A stretch of 64,000 nt of DNA from Escherichia phage JLBYU08. A program made the position numbers and the translations under genes. Positions 10,064 to 40,001 of this stretch are shown here, in pieces. How positions within the stretch are numbered: position 1 is the stretch's first letter; every line of letters starts with the position of its first letter. The stretch lies in the sequence record OK272482.1. One strand, written 5' to 3'. The notes beneath the pieces were generated by a model. The model saw only the letters and a program-made list of their open reading frames with translations. It made no database searches and had not been told where the DNA came from.

Positions 10064-10435
10064 TTATTTAAACGGCTGGTCCACATATTTTCTATTCCTC
10101 TCAAATAGGCGATCCGCCTCAGTTAAACAAATCTCATGGGCGTGATCTCTGGTTTTAGCTTCATCGAAAACCTGTTGTGCAAGGCTGCAACGTAGGGAGA
10201 CTGGAAGATCACTATAATAGGCGTTGACAAACGTTTGAGCGTCGTACAGGTCTGAAAATACTTTACCCTTTCTATTATTCCCCTTGTCAACAATTGCAAG
10301 GATAACCAATACAATAGTTGCAACCACCCCCAGGAAAATAGATATAATAAACCATAAAAAGGCGGATCTTCCCATCTTGCCAGCGATCCAGGCGTTAAAC
10401 AAGGCAACCAATACAGCCAAAATAATAAATTCCAT
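10064..10435 (-). CDS. membrane protein, about 123 aa (start at MEFIILAV)
   Basis: AAAAGAGG SD before internal ATG; two hydrophobic helices at N-terminus. Confidence 0.55.
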   Translation of the reverse strand: MEFIILAVLVALFNAWIAGKMGRSAFLWFIISIFLGVVATIVLVILAIVDKGNNRKGKVFSDLYDAQTFVNAYYSDLPVSLRCSLAQQVFDEAKTRDHAHEICLTEADRLFERNRKYVDQPFK

Positions 10436-10499
10436 TCTATGTACCTCTTTTACAGTTCTGATTAACAATAAGGCGGCAAATATGCCGCCTGCTACCTGA

Positions 10500-34368: not shown

Positions 34369-35573
34369 TACGCCTCCTCGTAGATAATGTCGATGATGTT
34401 ACCATCACGGTCAACTACGTATTCAATCGGATCGCCATCTTTGCGTGATTCCGGTGCTGCTACGATTTCGTAGCGGCATGCACGGCACTTAGCACTGTTG
34501 TGTTGGTATGGCACACTAACCACATCCGCAGGGTCAACCATAACCATCATTACAGTGCCATAGCCCGCTGCATACTCTTTGCTGGCGCAGTGCAGGCCAT
34601 AAGAACACGCAGCTTCCGGATCATCTTCTACAAAGTTACGAGGCATGGACACAAAAGCACCCTGGTATTGTGGAACTTTACCGCTGTGCCAATCCACCCA
34701 CCTGCTCCCGTTAAACTGAACCCCCTTATAGCAAATGATTCGACCATCTTCTGCAACCTGGATGTCATTAGCCTGCATGAAATCGTAGAGCATGTTCACA
34801 GATTTTGCAGACGGGTTGCGTAGCAGACGGACAAGGAATTTAACATATCGGTCGTCCAGTGTTCCATCTACATAATCTTCCTCAATTTTCTTTGCAATGG
34901 TGGATCGCATCTCTACACCGTAGTAGTAGAGCTTACCATCTTTCATGATCAGGTTGTCTGCAAGTGTGGTGAACTCATTCTTGCGTTCCAGCCAGACAAG
35001 GATTTCACCAATTGCCTCATCATATTCCTGAACAGAAATATGGTCGAAGACTTTCTGGTAAACTTCCTCACTTTCGCTGCGGCGAATTTCAAAAATGCCT
35101 TCGTTGCAGGTGATCTGGAGGAGTTCCCCGCAAATAACTACCAAAGGATCGATGCTTCGAGACTGTTGCTGAGACACACTGCTCACCACTTCCAGCACCG
35201 GATCTTTGACTTCTACTAAAGGTTCTTCTGACTTGATTGCTACCCCAGTGAACCCCACACCGTGAACAACACACAGTGGGTATACCACGCCCCAACGTTT
35301 AACGGAACCTTCACCTGAATCTAAGATCATGGCGTACTTACCGTTGTCTTCCAGTCCGTAGCGGAATAAACGGGCCTCTTCGCGGGTTTCAAAATCCTCA
35401 CGGGTATAGCAGACACTGTCTCGGTCAGGATCAAACAGCTCTGGGGCACCTACTGCCAGTGTCCATGTTGTAGTACCTTTCTCAATAGCACATGTGAAAC
35501 CCTTCTTCTCAAGTTCTGCACGGCGGTCGCGTGCTTCTTTACGAGTTTTGAAATGTTCGTAGATGAAAATCAT
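34368..35573 (-). CDS. rIIB: rIIB-like protein, 401 aa
   Basis: C-terminal region resembles T4 rIIB as recalled from memory (NDIQVAEDG..., MPRNFVEDD...SYGLHCASK, VDPADVVSVP...CRYEIV); directly downstream of rIIA-like gene; AAGGAGA SD. Confidence 0.65.
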   Translation of the reverse strand: MIFIYEHFKTRKEARDRRAELEKKGFTCAIEKGTTTWTLAVGAPELFDPDRDSVCYTREDFETREEARLFRYGLEDNGKYAMILDSGEGSVKRWGVVYPLCVVHGVGFTGVAIKSEEPLVEVKDPVLEVVSSVSQQQSRSIDPLVVICGELLQITCNEGIFEIRRSESEEVYQKVFDHISVQEYDEAIGEILVWLERKNEFTTLADNLIMKDGKLYYYGVEMRSTIAKKIEEDYVDGTLDDRYVKFLVRLLRNPSAKSVNMLYDFMQANDIQVAEDGRIICYKGVQFNGSRWVDWHSGKVPQYQGAFVSMPRNFVEDDPEAACSYGLHCASKEYAAGYGTVMMVMVDPADVVSVPYQHNSAKCRACRYEIVAAPESRKDGDPIEYVVDRDGNIIDIIYEEA

Positions 35574-35583
35574 AGCTGTCTCC

Positions 35584-37566
35584 TTATTTGGTGTTATTCT
35601 TTGCGTCGATCAGTTCACGGTATTCAATCATAGCAGGAGTGTCCCAATATTTCAAGCCCACATGCTTCAAAAGTGGATATTTCTTTTCCAATCTTGCAAT
35701 ATAGGCCTTCCCGCACTTGACTCGGTTGGCGATTAAGATTTTGGCACGATGATTTAGCTCACTGTGCTTCCACGCGGTGTTACCTTCCCACTTGTGGAAA
35801 TGTGGCCGATAATTTCCAAAATCTTGCATGGGGATAATTTTCCCTAATTGTCTATACAGGCTGTCATATGAAGTTTCATTTGCTGCGCGAGTCAGTAAGA
35901 ATTTCCAGGCGTCCTCTTTCAACAAATGTTCCACATTTTTCTCTGTAACATACTGGCAATCAGGATCAGTCCAAAGCAGACGAGATTCTGATACCAGGTA
36001 CAGATCTTCCCCTTCAGGAATCTGGAGTGCCGCACGCACACGGTCATAATTTTGCTGGTAGATGTTACTTAGCTGTCCCAGCCAACAACTTCCACGTTGG
36101 ATATCACCCTCATAAGGAATGCAGTGCTTAATCTTCTTGAACTCTGCCTTAGTAATACGCTCACGACGGAAGTAACCATCTTTCTCAAGTTTTTTAACCC
36201 AATACCCTGGCTCATAGTGAGTTTTTGTTTCACCTTTCTTTACAGGACGGCGAGGGAGCTCTGATAACAATTTGACCGTATCTGCAAAGAACGGGTGGTG
36301 TGCCGCTTCTTTAAACTCTTCCATCAGATCCGTGTTACGGCAATAGAAAACGTTGCGTCCGGTGATCTCGCTTAAGTAGTTACACTTATTTCGGTTATAT
36401 TTGCCGTCTCCGTCGTTAAATACAAGGTATACACCTCGTAAGAACTCCGACTTTCCGTAACGAGCATAGCCTATGCGGCCTTTATTTAAGCCGCCAGCGA
36501 AAATTTCACAATCGCCTAAGTCGCCAAGCCCTGTTTCTTCCCAACGGTTCCACATAAAGTTTTTGCCGAAGATGTGTCCGAACACTCCACTGTTCTTCAT
36601 CATCTCACGTGCTTCTGAGGATGTTTTTGCTGTCTCCAATTCCGCAACAACTTCTGCCCCACGAAGACGTATACCTTCTTTGACAAAGGCCTCCAGGCGA
36701 TCCTGGAATCCACCGTCGTCATGGCCCTCTATGGTCCATTCACGCCCAGGGTTAATATTGCAATCCCCAATAGGAATTTCCACGCAGATTGCAGGGTAAT
36801 CGGTCAATGTCTCCAGGAACTTAGAGCGGTAAGGTTGGTGACCCATCACAACACGGCTCTCATCAGAACTGGTATAACCTTTCAGGATAGTCATTTTCCA
36901 ACCATCTTTCTCGTAGCGATACTGCGCCTCAACCTTGTCACCTTCCAGCATCTTACTGGTCATAGGGTCGGTAACGGTAAACGGAAACTTTGCATAGCGT
37001 AGGCATGACGCAATAGCAGTGCGATATTTCAGAACATGCTCTTTCTTAACATGGAACTGAACTTTTACCCCGTTGTGCTCTTCAGTCTTCCGCTCGCGGA
37101 TCTTGGTAACGTTTGGGATACCCTGATCCAAGAACAATAGATATGTGCTTTCAACACCGTTGTGCACACTAATCACATCGAAAGTGTCCACCATGCTGAA
37201 CGGGGCCTTTGAACCTACACCTTTATTACCTACCAGAGCGTTGCTGTTGCGCTTGGTTGACTCCCCGAGGTTCATGAAAGTGTTGCGGACCATCTCTTCT
37301 GACATACCCAATCCAACGTCCTGCACAAAGAAGTATGGTTCAAGGTCTGTAGGGGAGTGAATGATGATCGGTACATCACCCCGTCCAGACTCAACATGGG
37401 AGTCCACAGCATTGAAGATTGGTTCACGGCAGCTTGCCAGCACCTTATCTTCGTAAATCCCTTTAATGATTAGCCCAAAAGTCTCTTTGTTCAGAGAAAT
37501 TGAGCCCCTGGTGACCTCCATATTTCCGGTTAGCACTGCTTTAGTTTCATTACTGTTTACAATCAT
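35584..37566 (-). CDS. rIIA: rIIA-like protein with N-terminal GHKL/histidine-kinase-like ATPase domain, 660 aa
   Basis: GHKL motifs (VQDVGLGM, GNKGVGSKAPF); size and pairing with rIIB-like gene; AAGGAG SD; ATGA coupling. Confidence 0.75.
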   Translation of the reverse strand: MIVNSNETKAVLTGNMEVTRGSISLNKETFGLIIKGIYEDKVLASCREPIFNAVDSHVESGRGDVPIIIHSPTDLEPYFFVQDVGLGMSEEMVRNTFMNLGESTKRNSNALVGNKGVGSKAPFSMVDTFDVISVHNGVESTYLLFLDQGIPNVTKIRERKTEEHNGVKVQFHVKKEHVLKYRTAIASCLRYAKFPFTVTDPMTSKMLEGDKVEAQYRYEKDGWKMTILKGYTSSDESRVVMGHQPYRSKFLETLTDYPAICVEIPIGDCNINPGREWTIEGHDDGGFQDRLEAFVKEGIRLRGAEVVAELETAKTSSEAREMMKNSGVFGHIFGKNFMWNRWEETGLGDLGDCEIFAGGLNKGRIGYARYGKSEFLRGVYLVFNDGDGKYNRNKCNYLSEITGRNVFYCRNTDLMEEFKEAAHHPFFADTVKLLSELPRRPVKKGETKTHYEPGYWVKKLEKDGYFRRERITKAEFKKIKHCIPYEGDIQRGSCWLGQLSNIYQQNYDRVRAALQIPEGEDLYLVSESRLLWTDPDCQYVTEKNVEHLLKEDAWKFLLTRAANETSYDSLYRQLGKIIPMQDFGNYRPHFHKWEGNTAWKHSELNHRAKILIANRVKCGKAYIARLEKKYPLLKHVGLKYWDTPAMIEYRELIDAKNNTK

Positions 37567-38063
37567 TTATTGCGCTCCTTGTAGTAGATATGACTCCCGA
37601 ATTGAGCTGTCCTCTGCATCTTTTTTGCCCATTTCGGTCGTACTTTGGTTGTATGGTAGTGTGTTGCTCCACCTGTTATGTCCATAGCCATGTATGCAAC
37701 ATGGTTGTTATTATAGACCTTTAGAAGCATCTTTGCAAGACTTTTAGCGTGATCCCATGAATCTTTTTCTGTCACCTTAAAAGTTTTGCCGTGGTTTGTC
37801 CACGAAAACTGGTTAGGTTGGTAGACAATCTTTCTTATAGTGTCTGGGTATTTGGGGTGAGATTTCCTGTTTAGTGTGGCAAACCCTGATGCCAGCATAC
37901 CCATCGTGCCATCCCCTCTAGCCTCCCTGTAGATATTGCATGCCAGAATGTTTTCCTTAGTATCTGATGGCTTGCAAGTATGATATACTTTTTGTTTTGG
38001 TGCTGCAACAACAGGCAGCGATAAAAGTGCGCTCAAAATAATAGCAAAGATCTTAATTTTCAC
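37563..38063 (-). CDS. secreted cell-wall hydrolase, SleB/Hydrolase_2-like, 166 aa, signal peptide, GTG start
   Basis: N-terminal signal peptide; NIYREARG...YQPNQFSW motif; GGAG SD; sits just after a terminator. Confidence 0.65.
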   Translation of the reverse strand: MKIKIFAIILSALLSLPVVAAPKQKVYHTCKPSDTKENILACNIYREARGDGTMGMLASGFATLNRKSHPKYPDTIRKIVYQPNQFSWTNHGKTFKVTEKDSWDHAKSLAKMLLKVYNNNHVAYMAMDITGGATHYHTTKVRPKWAKKMQRTAQFGSHIYYKERNK

Positions 38064-38070
38064 AATGACT

Positions 38071-38100
38071 CCAAATAGAAAATCCCCGCCGAAGCGGGGG
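38071..38100 (-). terminator. rho-independent terminator
   Basis: Minus strand: CCCCGC-TTCG-GCGGGG hairpin followed by ATTTTCTATTT. Confidence 0.6.
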
Positions 38101-38112
38101 AGGTCTTAGAAA

Positions 38113-38493
38113 TTAATCGTAGTGTGCCAAAATCTCTCCATCGTTGCAAGTTCCCTCTACAAAGTTATGAAGATTCATGCACTCATCTTGATAGAAGAAT
38201 TTACCGCTTTTCAGCCGTAGGCCAAACAACTCCGCATCTCCACGATGGCAAGCCTCTACAAGTTCATAGATTTCATACGGCAACTCTCCGTCGTCATGGA
38301 AGAATCCAGCCTTATCGTTGACATAAATGAAGAAATAATCACTGCTATCGCAAGCGTCCAATATTTTAAACCAGACTTCATCTACATCTTTTTCTCGGAT
38401 ATCGATCACGCAAGTGGAGCTGCATTCGTACTCCTTCTCCGGCTCCTCGGTCAATACCACCAGGTAGTTTCCCCGCTTACCTACTTTAGCCAT
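38113..38493 (-). CDS. hypothetical protein, about 126 aa, Cys-rich
   Basis: AAGGGGGG SD before internal ATG (MAKVGKRG). Confidence 0.55.
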   Translation of the reverse strand: MAKVGKRGNYLVVLTEEPEKEYECSSTCVIDIREKDVDEVWFKILDACDSSDYFFIYVNDKAGFFHDDGELPYEIYELVEACHRGDAELFGLRLKSGKFFYQDECMNLHNFVEGTCNDGEILAHYD

Positions 38494-38503
38494 ACAACCC
38501 CCC

Positions 38504-39688
38504 TTAAGCTTTAGCCAAAATGGCGCTAAACTCTTCACCAAACTCTTTTACAATCTTCATCAGGTTTGGGTATGCTTTGATCAGCTGAGCAACAATCTTG
38601 TCACGCCCTTTACCGATAAGCAAGGCATTTCCTAAGGCATTAGGTTTCATCATCGCCATAAAGACTGAGAATACAAAATCTCGGTTCTCGTCCTTGAAGT
38701 TTTCCCAAAGGAAATCGAGGAAGTTTGCCACGCAGCTGACAAGATCTTCGTCTGAGATACTTGCATTTTCCATCATATTACGAATAGCGATACAACCTTC
38801 AGATCCAAGAATCCACAAAATGTCTGGCTGCTTAGGACCTACGTATTCTTTGCAGCCACCTGCCATAATCCGACCGATTTCCGGTAAATTGCGTTTCTTG
38901 GTGTGGTATGTCCAGATCTCTACCGCTGCAGTGTGACCAATAGCACCTTGCAGAAGAACACGGGCCATAGCGTCAGAAATAATACCGCTGTCAAAATCGT
39001 GCAAGATGTCAGATGCAGCAACCCAAGATCGTGGTGTGGCAAAAGATGGACAATTAATCTCAGCCATAGCCTCATAATTATCAATAGCTGATGGAACTCT
39101 TTTCAGATACCCAATTACAGAGGAGTGAACCCCGTTGAGGAATGCGTAGTCCTCAATAAACACCTCTGCATTGCTTGTAACCTCTACAATGATAAAACGG
39201 TTAGCCAGAGGGGCTTCGAGCGCCGAAAGAACCGCACCATCTGTAGAACGGTTACCCGCAGCCACAAAAACAGAACCCTTAGGGAATGCATAGGTGCCGC
39301 ACTTGTGGTCAAGCATAATTTGCATTGCAACCTTTTGCAGGTAGTTATCTGCATGAGTGAGCTCATCCAGAAAGATAATTCCGCTCCAGTCAGGATCCGC
39401 AGGCCAAAATTCTGGAATTGCAAACACTGTACGTGTAGTTCCATCCGCTTCTACAGGGATAGGTAGCCCAGATAAGTCGGCAGGATCTTTATCTGACAGT
39501 CGCACGTCAACAAGGTTGTCATCTCGCTCACCGAACATATTATCAGCGATCTGCTTCATCACCTGGCTTTTACCCACACCCATTGGTCCCAAAATTAGGA
39601 CAGATCGGCTATGACGTTGGGCAAACTGAATAATAGCTGGCAACTCACGGACAGTGATTTGACCACTTTCGAATACGTTTCTTGACAT
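38504..39688 (-). CDS. MoxR-like AAA+ ATPase, 394 aa
   Basis: Walker A GPMGVGKS, Walker B IFLDEL, MoxR/AAA_5-like spacing; TAGAGGA SD. Confidence 0.8.
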   Translation of the reverse strand: MSRNVFESGQITVRELPAIIQFAQRHSRSVLILGPMGVGKSQVMKQIADNMFGERDDNLVDVRLSDKDPADLSGLPIPVEADGTTRTVFAIPEFWPADPDWSGIIFLDELTHADNYLQKVAMQIMLDHKCGTYAFPKGSVFVAAGNRSTDGAVLSALEAPLANRFIIVEVTSNAEVFIEDYAFLNGVHSSVIGYLKRVPSAIDNYEAMAEINCPSFATPRSWVAASDILHDFDSGIISDAMARVLLQGAIGHTAAVEIWTYHTKKRNLPEIGRIMAGGCKEYVGPKQPDILWILGSEGCIAIRNMMENASISDEDLVSCVANFLDFLWENFKDENRDFVFSVFMAMMKPNALGNALLIGKGRDKIVAQLIKAYPNLMKIVKEFGEEFSAILAKA

Positions 39689-39957
39689 TAGTAAAAGTCC
39701 TCTACTTGTGTGTAAGTGTTTTCAAAGTTTTCCAAAACAGATATCACATCGAATCTGTCAATATCATACGTGACTCTCCAGTTGTACGCAACCCTTTCTG
39801 CTGTTGCCTCTTCTGGCGCTAGTCGTCTGCTGGCATAAAAGAGTGTTGGAGTACACTTTCTTGCTTGCCCTCTAACTTTCCCATAATAATATCTGTGAAT
39901 ATCTTTGTCAAAATTTAACTCTTTTTCTGCACGAAGTTCATATTGCTGGTATAACAT
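39688..39957 (-). CDS. hypothetical protein, 89 aa
   Basis: ORF with AAGGAG SD. Confidence 0.6.
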   Translation of the reverse strand: MLYQQYELRAEKELNFDKDIHRYYYGKVRGQARKCTPTLFYASRRLAPEEATAERVAYNWRVTYDIDRFDVISVLENFENTYTQVEDFY

Positions 39958-40001
39958 CTCTACTACTCCTTAAGCAGCATCCTTGCCGCCATTCCTGCCC
40001 A

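What the first reader, a model, noticed from the sequence alone, without database searches (positions are those of the whole stretch)
37563..38063. Signal-peptide SleB-like cell-wall hydrolase inside the replication block, far from any lysis cassette
The 166-aa protein has a cleavable-looking signal peptide and the NIYREARG...YQPNQFSW hydrolase motif. It starts at GTG straight after a terminator and is coupled to rIIA. It could be a secreted endolysin, a virion-associated enzyme or a host-wall remodelling factor; its placement is unusual.
Basis: partly seen in the sequence, partly recalled or inferred. Interest (0 to 1): 0.45.

Follow-up and report, generated by a model that had tools for sequence, protein, structure and literature searches.

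The report
Known secreted SleB-like phage wall hydrolase

Summary
Window 37563..38063 (minus strand) encodes a 166-aa protein. It has a canonical-looking Sec signal peptide (MKIK, a 15-residue hydrophobic core, PVVA|AP) and one SleB/CwlJ-type Hydrolase_2 domain with the catalytic Glu (E47) intact. It starts at GTG, 20 nt after a strong terminator hairpin, and overlaps rIIA by ATGA.

The window is a Vequintavirus (rV5-like myophage). The gene is about 98-99% identical to rV5 gp2, which is annotated "cell wall hydrolase/SleB" in over 100 GenBank records.

The phage's canonical endolysin is a separate lambda-R-type lysozyme with no export signal; its homologue LysECP26 has been shown to be muralytic. 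Vequintavirinae have no lysis cassette, because holin, endolysin and spanins are scattered. "Far from the lysis cassette" is therefore normal for this group.

The order SleB, rIIA, rIIB, helicase is conserved in four genera. So is a "terminator + SD + non-ATG start" layout, which suggests deliberately low expression. The published virion proteome of CB7 does not list the homologue, and the held rV5 MS file has none of five gp2 peptide strings searched.

Best reading: a holin-independent, periplasmic accessory murein hydrolase. Interest is low to moderate and the gene is already known.

The parts
37563..38063 (-). SleB/CwlJ-family 'cell wall hydrolase' precursor, 166 aa, GTG start (orthologue of rV5 gp2)
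   Evidence: ORF listing. Pfam PF07486, E=2e-19. 99% protein matches annotated 'cell wall hydrolase' or 'SleB' in vequintavirus records. rV5 Table S3 lists gene 2 as 166 aa, pI 10.0.
38004..38063 (-). Predicted Sec (type I) signal peptide, residues 1-20: MKIKIFAIILSALLSLPVVA|AP
   Evidence: Rule-based features: +2 n-region, uncharged run 5-22, V-x-A at -3/-1, no lipobox Cys. Low pLDDT (about 52) for residues 1-20 in the model. The same MK[IL][KR] ... PV[VL]A| pattern is conserved in Seuna-, Mydo- and Avunavirus orthologues. A signal peptide was reported for the homologue CB7_83 (PMC7344957).
37581..37913 (-). Hydrolase_2 (SleB catalytic) domain, residues 51-161 by Pfam; the fold begins at about residue 27
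37923..37925 (-). Codon GAG for Glu47, the predicted catalytic glutamate in the NIYREARG motif
   Evidence: Aligned to the Glu of YGESRG in 4F55/4FET. Invariant among 9 homologues. Codon read directly from the sequence.
38073..38099 (-). Intrinsic-terminator-like hairpin (6 G-C pairs, UUCG loop) plus T-rich tail, between gp3 and the hydrolase gene
   Evidence: Identical to rV5 t003, -16.0 kcal/mol. A hairpin plus T-run at the same position, with a different stem sequence, is present in PVP-SE1, DP, 19-1-2, L013 and L014.
38069..38072 (-). Shine-Dalgarno GGAG, 5 nt upstream of the GTG start
   Evidence: Read. GGAG is conserved in all six aligned orthologous loci.
37563..37566 (-). ATGA overlap: hydrolase stop TGA and rIIA start ATG (translational coupling)
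35584..37566 (-). rIIA (660 aa)
   Evidence: phrog_612, E=2e-124. Knockdown of rIIA/rIIB in the vequintavirus EdH4 lowers plating only on RexAB-expressing hosts (PMC11879866).
34368..35573 (-). rIIB (401 aa)
   Evidence: phrog_609, E=3e-60; annotation.
38113..38493 (-). Upstream gene gp3 (126 aa, acidic, unknown function; phrog_12370; T5.083 homologue). It is the last gene before the terminator.

Best explanation
The gene is the Vequintavirus orthologue of rV5 gp2, an accessory murein hydrolase that reaches the cell wall without a holin.

Shown by sequence or structure prediction:
- The product is a single-domain SleB/CwlJ-family (Hydrolase_2) enzyme with the catalytic Glu47 intact.
- It is preceded by a canonical-looking Sec signal peptide.

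Inferred:
- SecYEG exports the precursor and signal peptidase I cuts after Ala20. This releases a 146-aa, very basic (pI about 10) soluble periplasmic enzyme.
- The two Cys residues (C30, C42) may form a disulfide.
- By homology to Bacillus SleB, the enzyme most likely acts as a lytic transglycosylase on the glycan strands.
- Expression is kept low. The gene sits 4 kb downstream of the early divergent promoter and directly behind an intrinsic terminator, with no room for a promoter of its own, so it is probably made only from read-through transcripts. It also uses a weak GTG start. In sister genera the start is TTG, behind an equivalent terminator.
- It is co-transcribed and translationally coupled with rIIA, then rIIB, helicase and the replication genes, so it is a delayed-early or middle gene rather than a late one.
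- Its most likely role is to load the periplasm with a small amount of wall-cutting enzyme. This would assist, or act as a back-up for, the canonical cytoplasmic lambda-R-type endolysin when the holin fires. Lysis-assisting activity may be restrained until membrane de-energisation, as is known for other secreted endolysins.

The biochemical identity and export are well supported. The physiological role is not.
For: Identity and fold:
- (Pfam, PHROG, PDB sequence search, invariant residues, model, Foldseek).

Export signal:
- Searches show the signal-peptide features conserved in four genera despite sequence drift.
- A signal peptide was reported for CB7_83, and that protein was toxic when expressed in E. 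coli (PMC7344957; 'data not shown' in the paper).

A separate canonical endolysin exists:
- rV5 Gp89 is called the obvious lysin (PMC3606486).
- LysECP26, 156 aa, was purified and shown to be muralytic (PMC9728275).
- The CarlMeissner homologue has no hydrophobic N-terminus.

Not a virion protein:
-.

Low-expression layout:
- Terminator.
- No promoter-like site between gp3 and the start codon.
- Terminator plus SD plus GTG/TTG start is conserved in Vequinta-, Seuna-, Mydo- and Avunavirus and in IMG/VR loci L013 and L014.
- Only 8 of 67 neighbouring annotated CDS use a non-ATG start.

Operon context:
-.

The same kind of accessory, signal-bearing SleB-like gene lies outside any lysis cluster in other phage groups:
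- T5-like phages (PMC3326045; PMC11180984).
- Phapecoctavirus (PMC10793346).
- Menderavirus.

The family can act as a true endolysin:
- N-terminally short versions in Vibrio phage R24D sit between small membrane proteins, which looks like a lysis cassette.
Against: - No experiment on this protein or a close orthologue shows muralytic activity, export, cleavage or timing. The CB7_83 toxicity is reported only as 'data not shown'.
- The signal peptide was judged by rules, not by a trained predictor.
- Terminator read-through and delayed-early timing are inferred from layout only. I found no transcriptome for any vequintavirus.
- An active free periplasmic hydrolase made before assembly would be expected to cause premature lysis. 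The model therefore needs low dosage or a restraint on activity, and neither is demonstrated.
- Vequintavirus lacks the small two-TMD partner gene that follows the hydrolase in Seuna-, Mydo- and Certrevirus, so any pinholin-type triggering would have to come from elsewhere.
Confidence: 0.6

Rival explanations
1. It has an early periplasmic function that is not lysis. Examples would be local wall remodelling, superinfection exclusion, or an envelope-related counter-defence role functionally tied to the rIIA/rIIB anti-Rex module with which it is co-translated.
For: - It lies in an early or middle operon and is ATGA-coupled to rIIA.
- The SleB-rIIA-rIIB order is kept in four genera at only about 40% rIIA identity.
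- The same order appears in a more distant IMG/VR contig, L050.
- Vequintavirus rII is needed only on RexAB hosts (PMC11879866).
- The phage already owns a complete canonical lysis set: holin candidate, endolysin and spanins.
Against: - The linkage to rII is absent in T5-like phages, Phapecoctavirus, Menderavirus, Pakpunavirus and Vibrio phages that carry similar genes.
- It is also absent in Certrevirus, which keeps the hydrolase but has no rII (PMC7344957).
- In L050 a terminator and a promoter-like site separate the two genes.
- Synteny within one subfamily may be simple vertical inheritance.
- No PADLOC match.
- No known mechanism links a glycan-strand cleaving enzyme to exclusion or to Rex.
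Confidence: 0.2
2. It is the phage's principal endolysin: a Sec-type secretory endolysin like Lys44 of Oenococcus phage fOg44 (comparison from my own knowledge). On this view the lambda-R-type lysozyme is secondary.
For: - PHROG and many GenBank records label homologues 'endolysin'.
- CR3_087 was 'implicated in host lysis', and CB7_83 is followed by a class II holin-like ORF (PMC7344957).
- Seuna- and Mydovirus also have a two-TMD ORF directly downstream.
- In small phages, SleB-like proteins appear to be the only lysin.
Against: - Vequintaviruses carry a conserved lambda-R-type lysozyme with demonstrated lytic activity (PMC9728275), which the rV5 authors regarded as the lysin.
- The hydrolase is in an early or middle operon behind a terminator with a weak start codon, the opposite of what a main lysis enzyme needs.
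- The adjacent small membrane ORF is missing in this genus.
Confidence: 0.1
3. It is a virion-associated peptidoglycan hydrolase that helps genome injection.
For: Phage tails often carry murein hydrolases, and Hydrolase_2 domains occur inside large virion-type proteins in some phages (for example the PBC5 'DarB-like' hit).
Against: - A cleavable export signal would send it to the periplasm, away from cytoplasmic assembly.
- It lies outside the structural module.
- None of five gp2 peptide strings was found in the held rV5 supplementary files, including the MS data (completeness of the held file was not checked).
- CB7_83 is not named among the structural proteins in the CB7 virion proteome text; the only one encoded outside the structural gene region is CB7_55.
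- The PA5oct SleB-like gp447 is also absent from virions.
- The tail already has gp25-like and hub lysozyme candidates.
Confidence: 0.03
4. It is a catalytically dead or decaying passenger gene (a moron) with no role in infection.
For: No phenotype has ever been reported. The gene is small and sits at an operon boundary.
Against: - The catalytic Glu and 15 other positions are invariant across homologues down to 32% identity.
- Orthologues keep the position, the signal peptide and the regulatory layout in four genera.
- The protein is about 98-99% conserved in the 115 phage records with matches at 95% identity or more.
- The homologue is toxic on expression.
Confidence: 0.05

Closest known systems
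rV5 gp2 'cell wall hydrolase' and its Vequintavirinae orthologues (PVP-SE1 gp243 'SleB', Pectobacterium phage CB7_83, Cronobacter phage CR3_087)
   Same: - Same gene: 166 aa, about 98-99% identity within Vequintavirus and 51-57% to Seuna-, Mydo- and Avunavirus.
- Same position in front of rIIA.
- Same signal peptide and Hydrolase_2 domain.
- Same upstream terminator.
   Different: - Nothing of substance within Vequintavirus.
- Sister genera use TTG instead of GTG.
- Seuna-, Mydo- and Certrevirus have a small two-TMD ORF downstream, which is absent here.
- Certrevirus lacks rII.
Bacillus spore cortex-lytic enzyme SleB (PDB 4F55, 4FET), a germination-specific lytic transglycosylase
   Same: - Catalytic-domain fold.
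- The catalytic Glu motif.
- Both are exported proteins.
   Different: - There is no N-terminal peptidoglycan-binding domain.
- It scores 48 bits against the 236.5-bit cut-off of the SleB equivalog model TIGR02869.
- The host is Gram-negative and has no muramic-delta-lactam cortex, so substrate recognition must differ (the last point is from established knowledge of SleB).
Secretory (signal-peptide) endolysins such as Lys44 of Oenococcus phage fOg44 (own knowledge, not checked here)
   Same: A murein hydrolase with an N-terminal Sec signal, which reaches the wall without holin holes. For this class, activity is thought to be restrained until the membrane is de-energised.
   Different: - Here the enzyme is an extra one beside a canonical cytoplasmic endolysin.
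- It is encoded in an early or middle operon rather than next to a holin.
- The host is Gram-negative.
- Restraint by the proton-motive force is untested.
SAR endolysins (P1 Lyz, phage 21 R21; own knowledge)
   Same: Sec-dependent and holin-hole-independent export of a phage muralytic enzyme in Gram-negative hosts.
   Different: - SAR domains are weakly hydrophobic, rich in Gly and Ala, uncleaved, and tether the enzyme in an inactive state.
- This N-terminus has no Gly, has a strongly hydrophobic core, and has a V-x-A peptidase site.
- Some marine IMG/VR homologues do look SAR-like.
Second, 'far-from-holin' SleB-domain lysins of T5-like phages (AKFV33 ORF81; Salmonella T5-likes) and of Phapecoctavirus
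   Same: - A signal-bearing single-domain Hydrolase_2 protein of about 150-175 aa.
- It sits in an early-type region, beside a different canonical endolysin.
- Its function is untested (PMC3326045; PMC11180984; PMC10793346).
   Different: - Only 37-42% identity.
- Not next to rII.

Membership tests
Pfam Hydrolase_2 (PF07486; SleB/CwlJ catalytic domain) | Profile match above the curated gathering score | tested here: met
   70.4 bits against a cut-off of 27, E=2e-19, profile positions 2-100 of 100.
Pfam Hydrolase_2 (PF07486; SleB/CwlJ catalytic domain) | SleB catalytic-domain fold | tested here: met
   AF2 model with pLDDT 88. Foldseek against the PDB gives only 4F55 and 4FET as significant hits, probability 1.00, TM 0.71-0.79 normalised to the target.
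Pfam Hydrolase_2 (PF07486; SleB/CwlJ catalytic domain) | Conserved catalytic glutamate in the Y-x-E-[AS]-R-G motif | tested here: met
   E47 aligns to the Glu of YGESRG in 4F55/4FET and is invariant in 9 homologues.
Pfam Hydrolase_2 (PF07486; SleB/CwlJ catalytic domain) | Peptidoglycan-cleaving (lytic transglycosylase) activity | not testable with these tools
   Needs purified protein, sacculi and muropeptide analysis.
Spore cortex-lytic enzyme SleB proper (NCBIfam TIGR02869, equivalog) | Full-length match above the equivalog cut-off | tested here: not met
   48.3 bits against a cut-off of 236.5. Only model positions 82-201 (the catalytic domain) match.
Spore cortex-lytic enzyme SleB proper (NCBIfam TIGR02869, equivalog) | N-terminal peptidoglycan-binding domain ahead of the catalytic domain | tested here: not met
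   Pfam finds only Hydrolase_2. Only a few residues separate the predicted signal-peptide cleavage site (after A20) from the start of the folded domain at about residue 27.
Secretory (Sec signal-peptide) endolysins | N-terminal tripartite type I signal peptide with an A-x-A-type cleavage site | tested here: met
   Rule-based only: +2 n-region, hydrophobic core I5-V19, P17, V18-x-A20|A21, no lipobox. The features are conserved in orthologues. A signal peptide was predicted for CB7_83 in PMC7344957. No trained predictor was available.
Secretory (Sec signal-peptide) endolysins | Actual export and cleavage in vivo | not testable with these tools
   Needs fusions, fractionation or N-terminal mass spectrometry.
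Secretory (Sec signal-peptide) endolysins | Is the enzyme responsible for host lysis at the end of the cycle | not tested
   Indirect evidence argues against a main role. A separate lambda-R-type endolysin exists and is active, and this gene is in an early or middle operon.
SAR (signal-anchor-release) endolysins | Weakly hydrophobic, Gly/Ala-rich N-terminal transmembrane segment without a peptidase site | tested here: not met
   The uncharged run has a Kyte-Doolittle mean of 2.35, a Gly/Ala/Ser/Thr fraction of 0.33 and no Gly, and a V-x-A site is present.
Virion-associated peptidoglycan hydrolases | Present in purified virions | tested here: not met
   Literature data only. None of five gp2 peptide strings was found in the held rV5 supplementary files (completeness of the held MS file was not checked). 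The CB7 virion proteome text names 26 structural proteins, and the only one outside the structural gene region is CB7_55.
Virion-associated peptidoglycan hydrolases | Encoded within the structural (tail or baseplate) module | tested here: not met
   The gene lies between the MoxR ATPase/gp3 and rIIA/rIIB/helicase. The structural genes are more than 10 kb away.

The most novel reading that the evidence does not exclude
Signal-bearing SleB-like hydrolases encoded in early or middle regions of several unrelated families of large virulent phages may form a distinct functional class. The families are Vequintavirinae, T5-like Demerecviridae, Phapecoctavirus and Menderavirus. The class would be an early, dose-limited periplasmic wall-modifying factor whose job is not end-point lysis. 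It might condition the envelope, exclude superinfecting phage, or work with the rII anti-Rex module. Alternatively it might be one half of a second, membrane-potential-gated lysis pathway, paired with the small two-TMD protein that follows it in Seuna-, Mydo- and Certrevirus. The conserved 'terminator + weak start codon' layout would then be the dosage control that makes an early secreted lysin tolerable.
Probability: 0.2. Interest if true: 0.55.

Novelty: already known. Interest (0 to 1): 0.25.

Why it matters
As a gene it is ordinary. It has been annotated since the rV5 genome paper, and its signal peptide was noted for a homologue in 2020.

What remains open, and is modestly interesting, is why many large virulent Gram-negative phages keep a second, exported murein hydrolase outside any lysis cluster, apparently under tight dosage control. 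Resolving that would refine models of lysis timing in phages used for biocontrol and therapy, since rV5-like and T5-like phages are common cocktail components. It would also tell enzybiotic developers whether these enzymes are active lysins that need no holin.

Tried and rejected
- Rfam scan of 36500-39000, both strands: only two sub-threshold chance hits and no RNA element.
- PADLOC: no defence-family match for the hydrolase or gp3.
- Plasmid collection: 67 weak hits to alphaproteobacterial and Acinetobacter 'cell wall hydrolase' genes.
- Search for the Seuna/Mydovirus small two-TMD ORF in the window and in the CarlMeissner genome: nothing significant, best E=0.05.
- Test of whether gp3 (the T5.083 homologue) and the hydrolase form a conserved pair: gp3 is found only in the two Vequintavirus IMG/VR loci and not next to the T5-like hydrolase. 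Rejected.
- Transcriptome or timing data: literature searches found nothing for any vequintavirus or for SleB-like genes. The PNAS 2026 Bas33 supplements contain no hit for 'hydrolase', 'SleB' or 'endolysin'.
- CRISPRi-ART paper: it tested rIIA/rIIB of EdH4 but not the hydrolase.
- Covariation support for the terminator hairpin: the hairpin is present in all six loci, but the alignment shows essentially no compensatory changes, so the argument rests on positional conservation only.
- Word-indexed homology search: only 10 hits. The exhaustive search showed the family is huge, with 11,355 cluster representatives at E<=1e-3.
- SAR endolysin and lipoprotein readings were considered and rejected on composition and on the absence of a lipobox.
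Full report
**What the window is.** Region 35000-40000 is 97-99.4% identical at the DNA level to more than 100 Escherichia phages of the genus Vequintavirus, the rV5-like myophages such as naswa, CarlMeissner, HdK5 and EdH4. In those records the ORF in question is already annotated 'cell wall hydrolase', 'putative hydrolase' or 'SleB cell wall hydrolase'. In the type phage rV5 it is gene 2: 166 aa, 19.05 kDa, pI 10.0, PF07486 (PMC3606486 Table S3).

**Checking the observation.**
- The ORF 37563..38063 on the minus strand, 166 aa with a GTG start, is real.
- It matches Pfam Hydrolase_2 far above threshold: 70.4 bits against 27.
- It matches PHROG 938 'endolysin'.
- By sequence, its only PDB relatives are the Bacillus SleB catalytic domains 4F55 and 4FET. 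The Glu of the phage motif NIYREARG aligns to the Glu of YGESRG.
- An AlphaFold2 model built on nine homologues is confident (pLDDT 88, pTM 0.80) except for residues 1-20.
- Its only significant Foldseek hits in the PDB are again 4F55 and 4FET.
- E47 and 15 other positions are invariant down to 32% identity.
- The protein is not an equivalog of spore SleB. It scores 48 bits against the 236.5-bit cut-off of TIGR02869 and lacks the N-terminal peptidoglycan-binding domain.

**The N-terminus.** MKIKIFAIILSALLSLPVVA|APKQK has the classic tripartite layout:
- two Lys in the n-region;
- a hydrophobic core (I5-V19) without Gly;
- Pro at -4, Val at -3 and Ala at -1;
- no lipobox Cys.

A Pro at +1 makes the alternative site after A21 unlikely (established rule for signal peptidase I). 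The pattern MK[IL][KR], hydrophobic core, PV[VL]A| is kept in the orthologues of PVP-SE1 (Seunavirus), DP (Mydovirus) and 19-1-2 (Avunavirus), although the residues in between have drifted. The authors of the Certrevirus CB7 paper reported a signal peptide for the homologue CB7_83 and toxicity on expression in E. coli (PMC7344957). I had no trained signal-peptide predictor, so this is a rule-based call. The predicted mature protein is 146 aa with pI 9.95 and has two Cys, C30 and C42. These Cys positions recur in many homologues. A periplasmic disulfide is an inference.

**Regulatory layout.**
- On the minus strand the upstream gene gp3 ends at 38113.
- The hairpin CCCCGCTTCGGCGGGG plus ATTTTCTATTT follows at 38099..38073. 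It is identical to rV5 terminator t003, -16 kcal/mol.
- Then come GGAG, 5 nt and GTG.
- There is no room for a promoter, and no promoter-like site, between gp3 and the start.
- The nearest published upstream promoter is the early divergent P010, about 4 kb away.
- I therefore infer that the hydrolase, rIIA, rIIB, the helicase and the following replication genes are expressed by read-through of this terminator, as delayed-early or middle genes.

The same layout occurs in PVP-SE1, DP, 19-1-2 and IMG/VR loci L013 and L014: a GC hairpin, a T-run, ATTTGGAG, 5-7 nt, then a non-ATG start. Those loci have a different stem sequence and use TTG instead of GTG. In the neighbouring 45 kb of phage CarlMeissner only 8 of 67 annotated CDS start with a non-ATG codon. 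A weak start codon right behind a terminator, kept over about 50% protein divergence, suggests selection for low dosage. This is an inference, and the hairpin alignment gives no useful covariation.

**Coupling to rII.** The stop TGA of the hydrolase overlaps the ATG of rIIA (ATGA, 37566..37563), and the rIIA Shine-Dalgarno AAGGAG lies in the last hydrolase codons.
- The order hydrolase, rIIA, rIIB, helicase is conserved in Vequintavirus, Seunavirus, Mydovirus, Avunavirus and IMG/VR L011-L014.
- A more distant IMG/VR contig, L050, also has a membrane-anchored SleB-like gene followed by rIIA and rIIB. There a terminator and a promoter-like site lie between them.
- The linkage is absent in Tequintavirus, Phapecoctavirus, Menderavirus, Pakpunavirus and a Vibrio myophage.
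- Certrevirus keeps the hydrolase without any rII genes.
- In the vequintavirus EdH4, knock-down of rIIA or rIIB matters only on hosts expressing lambda RexAB (PMC11879866). The hydrolase itself was not tested.

**The lysis context.** Vequintavirinae have no lysis cassette.
- In phage CarlMeissner the spanins sit beside terL at the start of the genome.
- A putative holin is at 86 kb; its window equivalent is 10064..10468 on the minus strand.
- The endolysin is at 127 kb, outside this window.
- The canonical endolysin is a 156-aa lambda-R-type lysozyme with no hydrophobic N-terminus. Its homologue LysECP26 was purified and lyses permeabilised Gram-negative cells (PMC9728275).

The hydrolase studied here is therefore a second, accessory enzyme. 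Its distance from 'the' lysis genes is the norm for this lineage.

**Is it a virion protein?** Probably not.
- None of five peptide strings from gp2 occurs in the held rV5 supplementary files, which include the virion MS data (I did not check whether the held MS file is complete).
- The CB7 virion proteome lists 26 proteins. The only one encoded outside the structural gene region is CB7_55, not CB7_83.
- The jumbo phage PA5oct SleB-like gp447 was likewise not detected.

**Wider family.** The domain is very common: 11,355 cluster representatives at E<=1e-3 and hits in 1,334 phage records.
- Almost all of the 150 best representatives, and most of 80 IMG/VR loci, carry an N-terminal hydrophobic segment. 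Some look like cleavable signals and some look SAR-like, rich in Gly, Ala, Ser and Thr.
- About nine IMG/VR loci, and small phages such as Vibrio phage R24D and Salmonella phage 7-11, have versions that begin at the catalytic motif with no export signal. In R24D the gene sits between small membrane proteins, which looks like a normal lysis cassette.
- The family can therefore serve as a true endolysin.
- In large virulent phages the signal-bearing form is repeatedly found as an extra gene in early-type regions beside a different canonical endolysin: T5-likes (PMC3326045; PMC11180984), Phapecoctavirus (PMC10793346) and Menderavirus. None has been characterised.

**A lineage difference.** In Seuna- and Mydovirus a conserved ORF of about 51-57 aa with two hydrophobic segments and a basic tail lies between the hydrolase and rIIA. 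The CB7 authors proposed the equivalent ORF, CB7_82, as a class II holin. Vequintavirus and Avunavirus lack it. This hints that the ancestral unit was a small 'secreted lysin + membrane protein' module.

**Conclusion.**
- Its identity as an exported single-domain SleB-family murein hydrolase is well supported.
- Its role is inferred. The most likely role is a dose-limited accessory lysin that reaches the wall without a holin. A non-lytic early periplasmic role is less likely.
- Virion association is unlikely.

Noticed in passing
L005 5440-5637 (PVP-SE1 record 145767-145964); compare L014 6455-6690, L092 4440-4625 and L013 6470-6680: Seuna- and Mydovirus have a conserved ORF of about 51-57 aa between the hydrolase and rIIA. 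It has two hydrophobic segments and a basic C-terminus, which is holin- or pinholin-like. In the PVP-SE1 record the annotated gp244 (MKNFFAALCLHYPVS...) is in a different frame from the conserved protein (...LLLCVCIIPYLVILSITQWMFWEQVSGAYLLGLLAGIYIVRKARKRN). This suggests an indel or a mis-annotation in that record. The ORF is absent from the window.
   Followed up: partly
PLSDB record CP057073.1 (137,565 bp, 'Escherichia coli' plasmid), hit H81: This 'plasmid' carries the hydrolase at 99.4% protein identity, next to an 'ATP-binding protein' that is presumably rIIA, and has the size of a vequintavirus genome.
   Followed up: no
Phage records MG065635.1 (Campylobacter phage C12) and MG065674.1 (A140), among the 16 (DNA search) and 23 (protein search) records labelled 'Campylobacter': Records labelled as Campylobacter jejuni phages are about 99% identical to E. 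coli vequintaviruses across this 5-kb region. The host assignment looks doubtful.
   Followed up: no
window 38113..38493 (-), with a possible TTG extension to 38541: gp3 is an acidic 126-aa protein (rV5 lists pI 4.3) of unknown function. It belongs to phrog_12370 and is listed in rV5 Table S3 as a homologue of T5.083. It is the last gene before the terminator. It is not linked to the hydrolase outside Vequintavirus.
   Followed up: partly
window 10064..10468 (-): This is the equivalent of the CarlMeissner 'putative holin' bas48_0115. From the internal Met it reads MEFIILAVLVALFNAWIAGK...FLWFIISIFLGVVATIVLVILAIV, with two hydrophobic segments. It lies about 27 kb from the hydrolase, which illustrates how the lysis genes are scattered.
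   Followed up: partly
L050 893-4735 (IMGVR_UViG_3300043467_000795): A distant uncultivated phage contig has a 200-aa SleB-like protein with an N-terminal membrane anchor and a long linker. It is followed by a terminator-like hairpin, a sigma-70-like promoter, a 718-aa rIIA with a TTG start, and rIIB. The gene order matches the window, but the genes are in separate transcription units.
   Followed up: partly
IMG/VR loci L017, L027, L029, L032, L040-L042, L044, L046 and others (N-termini listed): Many homologues from these uncultivated phage contigs start with a weakly hydrophobic segment rich in Gly, Ala, Ser and Thr, for example MSRTLNITSGLLTMSVLTGALVITLSMGG. These look like SAR domains rather than cleavable signals. 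SleB-type phage lysins therefore seem to use all three routes: cytoplasmic, SAR and cleaved signal.
   Followed up: no
window 38504..39688 (-): The MoxR-type AAA ATPase (phrog_1297) lies two genes upstream of the hydrolase and is present in Vequintavirus. In Seuna-, Mydo- and Avunavirus an RNA ligase 2 gene lies about 1 kb upstream of the hydrolase in that region instead, although 19-1-2 shows a partial MoxR-like match about 3.5 kb upstream. The conserved block therefore begins at the terminator and the hydrolase.
   Followed up: no
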